DNA of 64,000 nt from Euglena gracilis (Eukaryota), in NCBI GenBank assembly GCA_039621445.1, contig CP154954.1, forward strand, positions 45,301,847-45,365,846, read 5' to 3'. Both the position numbers and the translations under genes were made by a program. The notes under the pieces are model-generated. The model was not told the origin of the DNA, did not search any database, and saw nothing but the letters and a program-made list of their open reading frames with translations. Positions 44,701 through 47,563 of this stretch are shown here, in pieces (the stretch's first letter is position 1; each line of letters begins with the position of its first letter).

Positions 44701-47563
44701 GCCGGGTCAACCCACAGCTGCACAAGGATCCCCGCAAACCTGTGGGTGGTGGGGGAGTCCAACCCACCCCCAGGCCTTATTTTCGGGGGCGCCGAATTTT
44801 GGGTCAAAGTTTTCCTTCGGCACCAAGGGAATTTTCTTTGAGTGGGTGTCATGGCGGGGGGGTCAGTGTTGTATGGGAAGCTCCGCAGACATGAGGTACG
44901 TGGTACCCCCTGGTTTTGGAATGGGGTCCCCCCACCCCCCTCCTCCGACATTCCCAAGCCTGGGTCGACCCCCCCACCTCCCATCTGACTCCCATAATGG
45001 CGCGCATGCGGGGGGGGGTCAAAATATTTCTTCCCACGCTTTCCACGAAAAACCAAGAAAAACTCCAAACCCTGTCTCTAGTGAGAACCCCGGGGTCCAC
45101 AAAGCCCTTTGGGCACCCTCCCTGGTGTTCCAAGCCTTTTTAGAAAAAATCGTGTTCCACCAATTTTTTGGTCGGATCCTTCAGCACCTAATTGTCCGAC
45201 CACATTCGCTGGGCACACACATGGAATAAGTGGGGCCCCCATTCTTGGGAGGTGTGGGGGTTTATTCCCCCCCCCCCCTGGGGACTTTTAATTGATTAAC
45301 TGATTAATTATTAACTGGAGTTTAATAGGTTGCGCGATTTTGCCCAAAAAAGCAAGTCGGTGGACACTGACGAGGTTCATTTTCTCCGGGGGGGGAGAGC
45401 TCCGAAGAAAGGGCCAGAAGGGCAGAATGCATTGCTCAAACCAGACAGAAGTCAAAGTGCATCTAAGGGGGGCAGGAGCCCCCCCCCCCTTCGGGCACTC
45501 AAACAGTTTAATGGGTCCCCCGATGTGCCAACAAAATGATGATTCGGAAAAAGTATCAGCCAGATGCATGTGGTGGGGTATGGTGGCCCACTTTGTGCCA
45601 TGACTCTCACTTGGACTTGAAACTTCTTTTTTTTTTGTGGTTTCCTCCCCCTTCCCCTCCCCCTTGGGACCTTCCCCTGGTCAGCCAGGGTGGGTGGGGG
45701 GGGCACCAGTGGTCTTTCTCTTGAAGGAACCTTGGTGCGGATGACAACAATCAAAATTATACAGAAACCTTTGGTTCTCGAAATGGGTGGGTTGCCTTTC
45801 TCCTGGTTGTATGAGGAATCAACTGCAAGCACCTGTCTGCAAAAGATCAAGATGGATTCTGTTGAAAGTGCAGTTCATGCTTTGGTCGCTTTGCATGGAT
45901 ATGTGATGGATCCAACCAGGCTCCTGTAAATGCCTTTTGACCTTTTGCAGAAGGCTTCACCATTTTGATAGAAACTTCTAAAAAAAATTCAAGAAGAAAA
46001 TTCTTCCAAACAAAGAGCAAGAATGTGGTGGCTTCCAAGGTTTATTTGTGATTGACAGTGACAATTCAATCGCTTCCCCAACAAATGGCGACATTTTACT
46101 TTTTTTCCACCAAAAGCTTCTTTGGCCAAACCGGATGGTTCAGGTTGCTGGTTGCGCAGTCCATCTTCACCCCCATATTTTCTGTTCGTAGAATGATTTC
46201 CTCATCTCAGAAGCCTGGATCCTACAGCTCAAGGTCATGAAAAATATTCTGGGAAGGGCATCTGGATTGCTTTTGCCGCTTGCAAGCCGCGTCCTGCAAG
46301 GGGAAGACCAAGGCTTGAAGGTGCCCCACCGCAAGTTGAGGATCCCTCATCATATTACAGTTCCCAGGGCATGTGCGAAACTTCTTTTGCAAATTCTTTT
46401 CTTTCTTGCCTGTTTGGCTGTTTCGCAATGTCCTGTGTCTGGCTACCCTACCGAGCCGGAGTCTTTTGGCACCATGCTCCCGCCACCCCCACCCAGACGT
46501 TCATTTATTGCATCAGCAAAAAAATTTGTGTATCACTGTGCATCACATATATCACAAAAATTTTTAGTGCATTAAATGTGTATCACGAAAAAAGCAGGTG
46601 ACAAAAATGCGACACGTTTTGTTCCCTGCAATTTCTTGAGTTTCTCTGAAATGATTTGATCTGGGCCATACCATTGCTCAACACCTGTCCTACCCCACCC
46701 CGGGGGGGTGACTGACTGGTTTTTTCAGAGTGACTGACTGGTTTTTTCAGAGTGACTGACTGGTTTTTGGCCAAGAGCCCCCCCCCCCCCGGGGGGGTGG
46801 GGTAGGCCCGAAAATGAAAAAGTGACGCCAAAGGCGCCGGAAATTTTTTGGATTTTTTGAGACTTTTTGGCAATATTTCATTGCCTCCTGAAGAGTGGCT
46901 GATCCCCCCAGGGGGGGGGGTAAAGTGACTGACTGGTTTTTTTCAGAGTGGAAAGTGACCGCCCCCGGGGGGGGTCGCCAAGCAATGGTATGATCTGGGC
47001 CCAATTGTTCCTGATACCAAACTTTTTGTCCTTTTTTTATTGTCTTTTTGATTTTTGGGGGGGGCCAGTGCATATCAAAAATTTCGACATTTTTTTCACT
47101 CGGAAGACCACCTCCACACACACAGACAAGAAGGGCCAAAGGCAATACCACAAAGAAATTTGTGTATCACTTGCACATCACAGCGACATTATGATATACA
47201 CCAAGTGAATGTCTGCCCACACCCCCACCGCCCGCTGAGAACTACGACGGCTTTCAACCTTCATATGGGCCCAGTGGCATGAATCGGTACGGACACCAAT
47301 ACCCAGAATCCTGTTGGAACCCTCCCCCACCAAAAGAAAAAGATTGGATGCACCATGGTCCAGCATTGTCTGTCCACTTGGCCGGAAGACTTTTTTTGCA
47401 AGGGTTTTGGGTGGGTGGGTTGATTGAAAACAAGAAGGCATTCGATTCCATTGTCCTCTGCGTTTCCCCAGAGGTCTGCATGAATGGAAACATCACATTT
47501 TTCTGAAAGAAAGAATCTTGTTAACATTTTTTTTCTGGAAAATCCAGCGGATTCTGTTCCCAA
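41730..47563 (+). CDS. PTB: PTB/hnRNP-L family protein, 4 RRMs, predicted 561 aa; exons 41730-42324, 42409-42915, 43760-44003, 45845-45913, 46223-46361, 46441-46490, 47221-47300, 47562-47563
   Basis: [128 protein letters not shown]. Exon lengths sum to 1686 nt with no internal stop. Alternative start at 41811. Family-level call; last two exons less certain. Confidence 0.88.
42325..42408 (+). other. PTB intron 1 (84 nt), readable as non-canonical or as GT-AG (42326-42409)
   Basis: ACGCCAACT / AGTTGGCGT stem; both registers give FSR|LTS. Confidence 0.8.
42916..43759 (+). other. PTB intron 2 (844 nt), non-canonical
   Basis: CAGGCTGGT / ATCAGTCTG stem; C|G...C|A; joins SWSH-HPYL. Confidence 0.82.
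44004..45844 (+). other. PTB intron 3 (1841 nt), non-canonical
   Basis: CAGGCAAGTGCT / AGCACCTGTCTG stem; joins RAT-IKM, restoring RRM4. Confidence 0.85.
44159..44598. mobile_element. Foldback MITE with GG...CC termini and 8-bp TSD GCCATTTT (Merlin-like by termini/TSD)
   Basis: TIR GGTACTTGTCTGTTATCGTACGACATA; TSD at 44151-44158 and 44599-44606; internal 18-bp GTTGCGCTACATGGCCAT repeats in both orientations. Confidence 0.9.
45914..46222 (+). other. PTB intron 4 (309 nt), non-canonical
   Basis: CAGGCTCCTG / CAGAAGCCTG stem; flanks GATCCAAC / GATCCTAC. Confidence 0.85.
46362..46440 (+). other. PTB intron 5 (79 nt), non-canonical
   Basis: CAGGGCATGTGCGAAAC / GTTTCGCAATGTCCTG stem; phase-0 join YYS|GYP. 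Confidence 0.78.
46491..47220 (+). other. PTB intron 6 (730 nt), non-canonical, MITE-derived
   Basis: CAGACGTTCA / TGAATGTCTG stem; flanks CCCCCACC / CCCACACC; TGTATCAC subterminal motifs. Confidence 0.82.
46667..46992. mobile_element. CA...TG MITE with 8-bp TSD ATCTGGGC, nested in intron 6
   Basis: TIR CATACCATTGCT / AGCAATGGTATG; TSD at 46659-46666 and 46993-47000; GTGACTGACTGGTTTTTTCAGA repeats. Relatives at ~26140, ~48270, ~51250 and ~52070. Confidence 0.9.
47301..47561 (+). other. PTB intron 7 (261 nt), non-canonical; splicing creates the TAA stop
   Basis: CAGAATCC / GGATTCTG stem; T|AA join. Confidence 0.65.

What the first reader, a model, noticed from the sequence alone, without database searches (positions are those of the whole stretch)
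46486..47223. A non-canonical intron that is recognisably a DNA-transposon MITE (same family as 22485-24418)
Seen: the 3' end of PTB intron 6 (TGATATACACCAAGTGAATGTCTG) matches the right TIR of the 22485-24418 element (TGATACATACTAAATGGAGGTCTG) at 18/24 positions. Its 5' end CAGACGTTCATTTATTGCATCA resembles CAGACCGCCATTTAGTGCGTATCA. Both carry TGTATCAC/GTGATACA subterminal motifs. The free element has a perfect 8-bp TSD and the intron has a 7/8 relic (CCCCCACC / CCCACACC). Inference: a hAT/P-like MITE inserted into an exon and is now removed as a non-GT-AG intron, i.e. an introner acting through the non-canonical splicing pathway. A MITE origin for euglenid nonconventional introns has been proposed before; I cannot check whether this family-level link is published.
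Basis: partly seen in the sequence, partly recalled or inferred. Interest (0 to 1): 0.92.

Follow-up and report, generated by a model that had tools for sequence, protein, structure and literature searches.

The report
Transposon-derived nonconventional intron in Euglena PTB
The sixth intron of a Euglena RNA-binding-protein gene is a decayed copy of a small cut-and-paste transposon that also has a non-genic copy 24 kb away, which gives a concrete example for the long-suspected transposon origin of Euglena's odd introns.

Summary
Element A (46494-47215, 722 bp) has inverted CAG...CTG ends and 7/8 matching 8-bp flanks. It shares about 60-nt termini and a subterminal GTGATACA motif with element B (22485-24418). 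B has a perfect 8-bp target-site duplication and no detectable coding capacity.

- **Motif specificity:** the motif occurs 15 times in 64 kb, only in A and B.
- **Strength of the end match:** A-left versus B-right is the best of 190 end pairs among ten CAG...CTG elements.

Removing A plus one flank copy (730 nt, 46491-47220) gives a CDS that translates exactly to the deposited 561-aa Euglena gracilis PTB1/2 protein. RNA depth inside the intron is about 1-3% of exon depth, but junction reads were not displayed.

The intron fits the published nonconventional splicing code (N3-CAG...CTG-N5|R). The spacers add up to 3+5 = 8, the duplication length, so splicing restores the empty site.

The MITE hypothesis is already in print (2013-2025). 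I found no paper with a family-level link to a non-genic copy or with the 8-bp arithmetic. The superfamily is unassigned (hAT-like or Merlin-like). Mobility and genome-wide copy number could not be tested.

The parts
46491..47220 (+). PTB intron 6 as cut by the N3-CAG...CTG-N5 rule (730 nt, which is element A plus 8 nt)
   Evidence: It is one of 6 boundary solutions (46490-46495) that give the deposited protein. The full exon model translates identically to P0001. RNA depth drops in the interior.
46486..46493 (.). Left flank copy CCCCCACC (target-site duplication relic)
   Evidence: It is 7/8 identical to 47216-47223, but the context is low-complexity.
46494..46515 (+). Left terminal inverted repeat of A (CAGACGTTCATTTATTGCATCA)
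   Evidence: It pairs with 47192-47215 in a 13-bp uninterrupted RNA stem.
46517..46586 (+). Left subterminal repeats (TGTATCAC units at 46529-46536 and 46579-46586, plus degenerate copies)
46668..46991 (.). Nested, unrelated TIR element inside A. It has an 11-bp perfect TIR (ATACCATTGCT) and 10-bp direct repeats GATCTGGGCC at 46658-46667 and 46992-47001. It is a very high-copy repeat.
   Evidence: D9, I19. DNA word depth is 270,000-650,000 against about 200 for single-copy sequence, and DNA contigs break at 46691 and 47092.
47151..47180 (+). Right subterminal repeat (AAATTTGTGTATCAC at 47156-47170)
47192..47215 (+). Right terminal inverted repeat of A (reverse complement CAGACATTCACTTGGTGTATATCA)
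47216..47223 (.). Right flank copy CCCACACC
46441..46490 (+). PTB exon 6
47221..47300 (+). PTB exon 7. Its last base is the first base of the stop codon, which a predicted intron 7 (47301-47561) splits.
   Evidence: Intron 7 is inferred, not seen in reads.
22485..24418 (-). Element B, a 1934-bp non-genic relative of A in the opposite orientation. It has a TIR, 12 GTGATACA units, and a perfect 8-bp duplication ATCAACAA at 22477-22484 and 24419-24426.
   Evidence: 0 of 3 internal ORFs have a Pfam hit.
45914..46222 (+). PTB intron 4, a second nonconventional intron with a CAG...CTG core (45917-46217) and 7/8 8-bp flanks GATCCAAC and GATCCTAC in ordinary sequence

Best explanation
Element A is a decayed, non-autonomous terminal-inverted-repeat DNA transposon of the same family as element B. 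It inserted into the proline-rich C-terminal coding region of the Euglena gracilis PTB1/2 gene and duplicated 8 bp of target.

In the pre-mRNA the two inverted ends pair and bring the two flank copies together. The euglenid nonconventional splicing system then cuts 3 nt before the CAG and 5 nt after the CTG. Because 3+5 = 8, this removes the element plus exactly one flank copy and restores the uninterrupted reading frame. A later unrelated high-copy element nested inside A without affecting removal.

Shown here:
- the anatomy of A and B;
- the homology between them at both ends;
- the exact fit of the exon model to the deposited protein;
- the low RNA depth in the intron;
- the fit to the published splicing code.

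Inferred:
- insertion by a transposase;
- the cut positions inside the slidable 6-nt range;
- the pairing in vivo.
For: Family link:
- A 1-54 aligns to B 1934-1878 at 77.6% over 58 nt. A 4-100 aligns to B 174-83 at 70% over 100 nt. A 684-722 aligns to B 39-1 at 71.8%.
- A-left/B-right is the top of 190 end pairs, and 0 of 2000 shuffles reach its score. For A-right/B-left, 2 of 2000 shuffles reach the observed score.
- A four-end alignment shows two conserved end types, each shared between A and B. nhmmer finds only these four ends in 64 kb, at E 7e-15 to 3e-9, with the next hit at E 0.59.
- The motif is exclusive to A and B: 15 of 15 GTGATACA sites and 5 of 5 sites of the 15-mer.
- The other five nonconventional PTB introns lack the motif (with the intron coordinates).

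Transposon features:
- B has a perfect 8-bp duplication of exactly 8 bp.
- 0 of 5 ORFs tested in A and B have a Pfam hit.

Intron status:
- The CDS built with intron 6 = 46491-47220 is 1686 nt and translates to P0001 with 0 mismatches.
- Retaining A, or removing only the 722-bp core, changes the C-terminal sequence and brings up a different stop.
- RNA depth in 46812-47145 is 1.18/0.52 in X21 and 1.22 in X24. The neighbouring exon-containing bins read 37.9/43.2 and 44.5/45.2 in X21, and 16.2 and 6.99 in X24.

Splicing code:
- A reads ACC-CAG...CTG-CCCAC|A. This matches 5'-N3CDG-/-CH'GN5-6|R (PMC12501133, sections 8 and 11).
- The ends form a 13-bp stem starting at C46494-G47215. Duplex energy is -19.0 kcal/mol, against -8.7 (sd 2.4) for shuffles.

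Independent hint from the literature: a newly gained nonconventional intron in an E. agilis strain has eight-nucleotide direct repeats (PMC4770533, passage seen).
Against: - No junction-spanning or circular-RNA reads were displayed. The joint table was capped, with 558 rows hidden, and the call cannot be repeated.
- A's 7/8 flank repeat is in a C-rich tract, where 8 of 529 local 8-mer pairs do as well. An exact copy of the left 8-mer also lies 6 nt further downstream.
- Only two family copies are known and they are about 70-78% alike, so the family is old and there is no sign of recent activity.
- Both DNA runs carry the filled site at single-copy depth, and no empty allele was listed.
- No transposase was found in the window.
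- Whether B is itself transcribed and spliced is unknown.
- The window-wide excess of CAG...CTG elements with 8-bp flanks is modest once real-sequence controls are used.
Confidence: 0.78

Rival explanations
1. The resemblance between A and B is convergent. Any nonconventional intron needs CAG/CTG and pairing ends, so two such sequences can look alike without common descent.
For: All six nonconventional PTB introns, and other elements in the window, start with CAG(A/G) and end with C(T/C)CTG-like ends. The published code requires CAG...CTG and pairing.
Against: - The similarity runs about 60 nt beyond the motif. It includes an A-run and repeated GTATCAC units that are not part of the stem.
- It beats all 189 other end pairs and all 2000 shuffles that keep CAGAC.
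- The subterminal motif is absent from the other five nonconventional introns of the same gene.
Confidence: 0.04
2. The family spreads through RNA, not by a DNA transposase. Excised intron circles are reverse-spliced or reverse-transcribed into new sites, and B is such a copy, or A is a copy of a B-like transcript.
For: Nonconventional introns are reported to be released as full-length circles. I saw this only as cited in passages of PMC12501133, PMC11282704 and PMC12621601. The window is rich in reverse-transcriptase genes.
Against: - An excised intron carries 3+5 nt of its old flanks. A and B share no such flank letters, and their homology starts exactly at CAG.
- B's duplication is exactly 8 bp, as are two other perfect cases in the window. 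There are none of 7 or 9-12 bp. That fits a staggered-cut transposase.
- For the high-copy element at 49159-49734, DNA contigs with unlike flanks diverge at 49157/49159, that is, at the CAG.
Confidence: 0.08
3. Intron gain by double-strand-break repair. A fragment of a repeat was captured as filler DNA in the PTB exon, and the short direct repeats come from microhomology rather than from transposition.
For: This was proposed for the E. agilis gapC intron with eight-nt direct repeats (PMC4770533, passage seen). A's flank repeat is imperfect and low-complexity.
Against: - A retains both complete ends of the family, each matching its counterpart in B, rather than an arbitrary fragment.
- B and two other elements have perfect repeats of the same 8-bp length directly abutting CAG...CTG. 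Microhomology does not predict that.
Confidence: 0.05
4. B is not a free copy but is itself a nonconventional intron of an unannotated transcript. This would still be transposon-derived, but it would remove the 'genic versus non-genic' contrast.
For: B has N3-CAG...CTG-N5 geometry like any such element. No reads were laid on B, because the single read-laying run covered 40800-50800.
Against: - B's flanks are AT-rich, with GC 0.43-0.45 against 0.5 or more in genic parts.
- No ORF of 110 aa or more lies within about 400 bp on either side of B.
- B lies inside a large inverted-repeat structure.
- The base after the 5-nt spacer is C, a pyrimidine, which the published code disfavours.
Confidence: 0.2

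Closest known systems
Euglenid nonconventional introns (code 5'-N3CDG-/-CH'GN5-6|R; PMC12501133)
   Same: A has no GT-AG. It has CAG at +4..+6 and CTG at -8..-6, a pairing stem, a purine at the start of the next exon, and slidable borders.
   Different: Nothing differs; it is a member. What is added here is a sequence family shared with a non-genic copy, and the point that the 3+5 spacers equal the 8-bp duplication.
MITE-origin hypothesis for these introns (PMC3935182, 2013; review PMC11282704, 2024; PMC12501133 discussion, 2025)
   Same: Inverted ends and 'TSD-like' repeats at the borders are read as traces of a MITE insertion (passages seen).
   Different: In the passages I saw, those papers argue from intron ends alone. 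The 2013 paper states that no transposable element had been identified in euglenids, and the 2025 paper states that the origins remain unclear. None names a family, a free copy or a duplication length.
Introners / transposon-derived spliceosomal introns (Micromonas, Aureococcus; Huff et al. 2016, seen only in the reference list of PMC11170887, otherwise recalled)
   Same: A non-autonomous DNA transposon lands in an exon and is removed from the RNA together with one duplication copy, so the frame is kept.
   Different: Introners are removed by the U2 spliceosome using GT/AG supplied partly by the element and the duplication. Here removal follows the nonconventional CAG/CTG stem code.
Non-canonical intronic elements of Amoebophrya (PMC7789003, seen only as described in the review passage and in search listings)
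   Same: Introns with inverted repeats and target-site duplications and with non-canonical borders.
   Different: The duplications there are given as 3-5 nt, against 8 bp here. The lineage and the presumed machinery also differ.
hAT-superfamily MITEs
   Same: An 8-bp duplication, short TIRs beginning CAG, and arrays of short subterminal repeats. These family features are recalled, not tested against a library.
   Different: The fifth base of the recalled YARNG consensus is not met (CAGAC). No hAT transposase or dimerisation domain was found in the window.
Merlin families of Euglena gracilis (PMC8101967)
   Same: This is the only DNA-transposon superfamily I found in print for E. gracilis. Both families are reported to make 8-bp duplications (passage seen).
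   Different: Merlin TIRs are said there to end in 5'-GG. A and B start with CAG and are preceded by CC and AA. The published TIR sequences are in a figure and supplement that I could not see.

Membership tests
Euglenid nonconventional intron | Absent from mature mRNA | tested here: met
   The exon model translates to P0001 with 0 mismatches over 561 aa. Interior RNA depth is about 1-3% of exon depth in two RNA runs. Junction reads were not displayed.
Euglenid nonconventional intron | No GT-AG borders in any allowed position | tested here: met
   None of the 6 allowed solutions is GT...AG.
Euglenid nonconventional intron | N3-CAG ... CTG-N5-6 followed by a purine | tested here: met
   ACC-CAG...CTG-CCCAC|A with intron 46491-47220 (rule).
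Euglenid nonconventional intron | Ends pair and bring the borders together | tested here: met
   A 13-bp stem from 46494/47215, at -19.0 kcal/mol against -8.7 (sd 2.4) for shuffles. This is predicted, not probed.
Euglenid nonconventional intron | Released as a full-length circular RNA | not tested
   Back-joints, if any, were among the 558 hidden rows.
MITE (non-autonomous TIR DNA transposon) | Terminal inverted repeats | tested here: met
   11 of the first 14 nt are identical between A's ends, and 13 of 14 in B.
MITE (non-autonomous TIR DNA transposon) | Target-site duplication of fixed length | tested here: met
   B has 8/8, exactly 8 bp. A has 7/8, but in low-complexity sequence, so A alone is inconclusive.
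MITE (non-autonomous TIR DNA transposon) | No coding capacity, small size | tested here: met
   0 of 5 ORFs in A and B hit Pfam. A is 722 bp, or 388 bp without the nested element and one of its 10-bp flanking repeat copies.
MITE (non-autonomous TIR DNA transposon) | Multiple dispersed copies with unrelated flanks | tested here: inconclusive
   There are 2 copies in 64 kb with unrelated flanks. No whole genome is held. Two metagenome scans found 0.
MITE (non-autonomous TIR DNA transposon) | Evidence of mobility (empty sites, polymorphism) | tested here: not met
   Contigs of both DNA runs cross both ends of A at single-copy depth. No empty-site joint is among the 15 rows shown.
hAT superfamily | 8-bp target-site duplication | tested here: met
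hAT superfamily | TIR consensus YARNG (recalled) | tested here: inconclusive
   CAGAC meets 4 of 5 positions. The consensus is from memory.
hAT superfamily | Autonomous copy with a hAT transposase sharing the ends | not testable with these tools
   None in the window: 20 ORFs scanned, with only reverse transcriptase and a weak Dam hit. No genome is held.
Merlin superfamily | 8-9-bp duplication and TIRs ending in 5'-GG | tested here: not met
   The duplication length fits, but A and B begin with CAG, not GG (the feature is from the passage seen).

The most novel reading that the evidence does not exclude
Most euglenid nonconventional introns descend from one broad group of CAG-terminated transposons that make 8-bp duplications. 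Free copies of this group still sit between genes. The experimentally defined splicing rule, 3 nt before CAG and 5 nt after CTG, is the RNA image of that duplication. The cell cuts at the same position in each duplication copy and so performs a precise excision at the RNA level. In this reading the nonconventional machinery evolved, or was recruited from transposon functions, as a defence that made exon insertions harmless and allowed hundreds of thousands of them to accumulate.
Probability: 0.35. Interest if true: 0.85.

Novelty: new member of a known kind. Interest (0 to 1): 0.64.

Why it matters
Nonconventional introns make up most introns in Euglena. The 2025 study gives 71.8% in E. agilis. 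In the 2025 papers I read, their origin is still called unclear and the factors that remove them unknown.

This locus gives three concrete handles:
- A sequence family with two recognisable end types and a subterminal motif. It can be searched genome-wide to count exonic and non-genic copies and to look for a master copy with a transposase.
- A fixed 8-bp duplication that explains the 3+5 spacer rule.
- A natural test object, B, for asking whether a free transposon copy is spliced when placed in an exon.

If the link generalises, euglenids would be a case in which a non-spliceosomal RNA excision system let DNA transposons colonise coding sequence on a massive scale.

Tried and rejected
- **Whole genome:** none is held, so copy number, a duplication logo and a search for an autonomous element were impossible.
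- **Read laying (the only one allowed):** I asked for rare joints (min_share 2) over 10 kb. The joint table was filled by a highly expressed neighbour gene and by DNA repeat joints, with 558 rows hidden. No PTB intron joint, back-joint or empty-site joint could be read. Only depth and contig pieces were usable.
- **Metagenome scans:** scans for B's TIR pattern and for the double GTGATACA unit found 0 and 0.
- **Earlier findings of the scan:** nothing relevant.
- **Rfam on 20000-50000:** 0 families.
- **Pfam on 20 ORFs:** no transposase.
- **Window-wide scan for CAG...CTG elements with 8-bp flanks (up to 1 mismatch):**
  - It gave 7 hits, against 0.25 in Markov-1 simulations and 2 in the reversed sequence.
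  - That null is too lenient. With the other 63 start trinucleotides on the real sequence there are 63 perfect and 282 near-perfect cases in 81,732 pairs, mostly homopolymers and tandem arrays.
  - After filters for low complexity and tandem repeats, CAG keeps 3 hits (2 perfect), against a mean of 0.62 (max 6) and 0.17 perfect (max 4) for the others. By my reading, the higher sets have palindromic 8-mers, that is, longer TIRs rather than duplications.
  - The filter also drops A, 48487-48764, 25069-25169 and 18478-19834.
  - I therefore use the scan only as support, not as proof of generality.
rejected in favour of the crosswise pairing (30 and 17, against 12 and 12).
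Full report
**Where we are.** The exons at 41730-47300 (+ strand) encode, letter for letter, the 561-aa 'polypyrimidine tract-binding protein 1/2' recorded for Euglena gracilis (P0001, UniRef A0AA51UAN1). A transcriptome-derived E. longa protein is 98% identical, 551 of 562 aligned positions.

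Protein-guided mapping gives seven introns:
- Intron 1 (42326-42409) can be GT-AG.
- Introns 2-6 cannot be GT-AG in any allowed position.
- A seventh intron (47301-47561) is predicted and splits the stop codon.

With every nonconventional intron cut '3 nt before CAG, 5 nt after CTG', the CDS is 1686 nt. It translates to P0001 with 0 mismatches and ends in a stop. The finding's intron is indeed intron 6.

**The observation.** Element A is the CAG...CTG core at 46494-47215 (722 bp). Element B is 22485-24418 (1934 bp).

| Feature | A | B |
|---|---|---|
| Left end | CAGACGTTCATTTATTGCATCA | CAGACCGCCATTTAGTGCGTATCAC |
| Right end (reverse complement) | CAGACATTCACTTGGTGTATATCA | CAGACCTCCATTTAGTATGTATCAC |
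| 8-bp flanks | CCCCCACC / CCCACACC (7/8) | ATCAACAA / ATCAACAA (8/8) |
| GTGATACA sites | 3 (- strand) | 12 (+ strand) |

- A pattern built from B's left end finds only both B ends and A's right end in 64 kb, against 0.00 expected.
- GTGATACA occurs 15 times, all in A or B, against 0.53 expected.
- The 15-mer AAATTTGTGTATCAC, with up to 2 mismatches, occurs 5 times, all in A or B, against 0.21 expected.

**Is the end similarity more than 'CAG-starting introns look alike'?** I took the first 60 nt of both ends of ten CAG...CTG elements of the window: A, B, PTB introns 2-5 and four others. I scored all 190 pairs.
- A-left/B-right scores 30, the highest of all. It is above every within-element pair. 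The median is 7 and the 95th percentile is 12.
- With CAGAC held fixed, 0 of 2000 shuffles reach 30.
- A-right/B-left scores 17, reached by 2 of 2000 shuffles.
- BLASTN gives A 1-54 against B 1934-1878 at 77.6% over 58 nt, A 4-100 against B 174-83 at 70% over 100 nt, and A 684-722 against B 39-1 at 71.8%.
- A MAFFT alignment of the four ends shows two end types, each shared by one end of A and one of B. An HMM of them finds only these four sites in the window, at E 7e-15 to 3e-9, with the next hit at E 0.59.

Outside about 100 nt at one end and 40-70 nt at the other, the two share nothing specific. This is the usual pattern for non-autonomous relatives.

**Anatomy.**
- In both elements the subterminal units point the same way at both ends.
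- A carries a nested, unrelated element at 46668-46991. It has a perfect 11-bp TIR and perfect 10-bp flanking repeats.
- DNA word depth there is 270,000-650,000, against about 200 in single-copy parts. DNA contigs of two runs stop at 46691 and resume at 47092.
- Without that insert, A is 388 bp.
- 0 of 5 ORFs in A and B hit Pfam. Rfam finds nothing in 20000-50000.
- B lies in AT-richer DNA, about 440 bp inside the left arm of a large inverted repeat with arms at 20743-22044 and 31230-32409. No ORF of 110 aa or more lies within about 400 bp on either side of it.

**Is A removed from the RNA?**
- The deposited protein requires removal of exactly 730 nt, with 6 slidable solutions at 46490-46495.
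- Keeping A replaces the C-terminus after ...TMLPPPPP with 26 foreign residues and a stop.
- Removing only the 722-bp core shifts the frame.
- In two RNA runs of the same species label, depth in the interior bin 46812-47145 is 1.18/0.52 (X21) and 1.22 on the gene's strand (X24).
- The flanking exon-containing bins read 37.9/43.2 and 44.5/45.2 (X21), and 16.2 and 6.99 (X24). The 5' exons read about 70-140 per direction.
- The interior is a high-copy repeat, so even the residual reads may come from elsewhere.
- The table of joints was capped, and no PTB joint was shown. Junction reads are therefore not in evidence, and circular products were not assessed.

**How it works.** The 2025 PNAS study of E. 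agilis and E. gracilis (PMC12501133; I read sections 5, 8 and 11 plus discussion passages) defines the nonconventional code by knock-in experiments as 5'-N3CDG-/-CH'GN5-6|R, with pairing of the ends.
- A reads ACC-CAG...CTG-CCCAC|A, so it fits the code.
- Its ends are predicted to form a 13-bp uninterrupted stem beginning at C46494-G47215. Duplex energy is -19.0 kcal/mol, against -8.7 (sd 2.4) for shuffles.
- All six nonconventional PTB introns have an allowed solution with this geometry.

The point that links splicing to transposition is arithmetic. The spacers are 3 and 5 nt, and the duplication is 8 bp. For an insertion x1-x8|CAG...CTG|x1-x8, cutting after x5 in both copies removes the element and one duplication. 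It also rejoins x1-x5 to x6-x8, which is the empty site. I did not find this stated in the passages I read.

Two papers come close:
- The 2024 review (PMC11282704, passages seen) places CAG/CTG at +4..+6 and -8..-6 and speaks of 'TSD-like' repeats.
- The 2016 paper (PMC4770533, passages seen) reports eight-nucleotide direct repeats at a newly gained intron in one E. agilis strain, but reads them as double-strand-break repair.

**How general is it in this window?**
- Intron 4 has a CAG...CTG core (45917-46217) with 7/8 flanks GATCCAAC and GATCCTAC in ordinary sequence. Only 1 of 529 local 8-mer pairs reaches 7/8.
- Introns 2, 3, 5 and 7 have 1-3 matches out of 8 by my own counts on the sequence.
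- Among 931 CAG...CTG pairs with at least 10/14 TIR identity, perfect abutting flank repeats number 10, 5, 1, 0, 3, 0, 0, 0, 0 for lengths 4 to 12.
- The three of length 8 are B, 48487-48764 and 49159-49734. Simulations give 0.0 at length 8.
- For 49159-49734 the DNA runs show 22+42 (X1) and 19+32 (X4) contigs whose unlike flanks begin at 49157 or 49159, that is, at the CAG. Word depth there is about 745,000. This marks a very abundant mobile family with the same end geometry.

Real-sequence controls temper this. Other start trinucleotides also give hits, mostly from homopolymers, tandem arrays and palindromic flanks. After filtering, CAG keeps 3 hits (2 perfect), against means of 0.62 and 0.17 for the others. 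I treat the generality as likely, not shown.

**Weak points.**
- A's own flank repeat sits in a (CCN)n tract, where 8 of 529 local pairs reach 7/8.
- The family is known from two copies that are 70-78% alike.
- Both DNA runs have the filled site at single-copy depth, and no empty allele was listed.
- No transposase lies in the window: 20 ORFs were scanned, giving only RVT_1 twice and a sub-threshold Dam hit.
- B was not covered by reads.
- No whole genome is held, and two metagenome scans found nothing.

**Superfamily.** An 8-bp duplication, a CAG terminus and subterminal repeat arrays are hAT-like, but these features are recalled and CAGAC meets only 4 of 5 positions of the recalled YARNG consensus. 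The only DNA transposons I found in print for E. gracilis are two Merlin families 'both generating 8-bp TSDs'. Merlin TIRs are said to end in GG, which A and B do not (PMC8101967, passages seen; the TIR sequences are in a figure and supplement I could not see). I leave the superfamily open.

**Literature and novelty.** The MITE hypothesis is in print:
- PMC3935182 (2013; passages seen), which also says that no transposable element had then been identified in euglenids.
- PMC4770533 (2016).
- PMC11282704 (2024).
- PMC11170887 (2024; passages seen).
- PMC12621601 (2025; passages seen).

Seven full-text searches returned no paper that defines a transposon family shared by a nonconventional intron and a non-genic copy, gives an 8-bp duplication as the rule, or assigns a superfamily. 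Subscription-only papers and supplements are outside what I could see.

**Verdict.** This is a well-supported instance of a published hypothesis, not a new kind of element. Its value is that it makes the hypothesis directly testable.

Noticed in passing
window 49159-49734: A 576-bp element with a perfect 14-bp TIR (CAGGGCAGAACGGG) and a perfect 8-bp duplication CCCACAGG. DNA word depth is about 745,000 against about 200 for single-copy sequence. Dozens of DNA contigs have unlike flanks that start at 49157 or 49159. It is a very abundant transposon family with the same CAG...CTG and 8-bp geometry as nonconventional introns.
   Followed up: partly
window 48487-48764: A 278-bp CAG...CTG element with a perfect 8-bp duplication GGTGGGAG and 12/14 TIR identity. 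It is G/C-run rich and lies downstream of PTB.
   Followed up: no
window 45914-46222: PTB intron 4 has 12 slidable boundary solutions. Its CAG...CTG core is flanked by GATCCAAC and GATCCTAC (7/8) in ordinary sequence. It is a second transposon-like nonconventional intron in the same gene, from a different family.
   Followed up: partly
window 46668-46991: A nested element inside intron 6, with an 11-bp perfect TIR ATACCATTGCT, 10-bp perfect flanking repeats GATCTGGGCC, internal 22-nt tandem repeats and C-run/G-run palindromes. Its copy number is extremely high. The duplication length differs from 8 bp, so it belongs to another superfamily.
   Followed up: partly
window 20743-22044 and 31230-32409: A large inverted repeat, 85% identical over 1315 bp with stretches of 92-98%, enclosing about 9.2 kb that includes element B. 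The outer ends begin TTAAAACCTATTTTCTGGGCCCG. No Pfam hit in 8 interior ORFs outside B. It may be a large TIR element or a palindromic duplication.
   Followed up: partly
window 52300-64000: At least three and a half tandem copies of a unit of about 3.2 kb with long ORFs. The 810-aa ORF at 58671-61100 has a reverse-transcriptase domain (RVT_1, E 5e-13).
   Followed up: no
window 9256-12186: A reverse-transcriptase ORF (10164-11138, RVT_1 E 5e-15) overlaps at its 3' end an ORF with a weak, sub-threshold Dam adenine-methyltransferase hit (11104-12186, E 0.001, 19 bits against a cut-off of 28). A 2026 bioRxiv listing (10.64898/2026.05.21.726589, search listing only) describes retrotransposons that carry such methyltransferases and mentions E. 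gracilis.
   Followed up: no
window 41114-41634 (- strand): A strongly expressed neighbour gene on the opposite strand, with three 47-51-nt introns that read CT..AC on the + strand, so GT..AG on its own strand. About 300 reads at 41634 continue into a loose A-rich tail. It looks like the reverse complement of the T-rich end of the euglenid spliced leader (recalled, not tested).
   Followed up: no
P0002 versus P0001, residues about 531-541: The E. longa ortholog reads LPPQPPPPPQAEN where E. gracilis reads LPPPPPPPPAEN, exactly at the position of intron 6. Whether E. longa has the intron is unknown.
   Followed up: no
window 44261-44496: An 18/36-nt tandem array (about 13 copies) inside PTB intron 3. 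DNA word depth there is about 131,000, so it is another high-copy repeat within a nonconventional intron.
   Followed up: no
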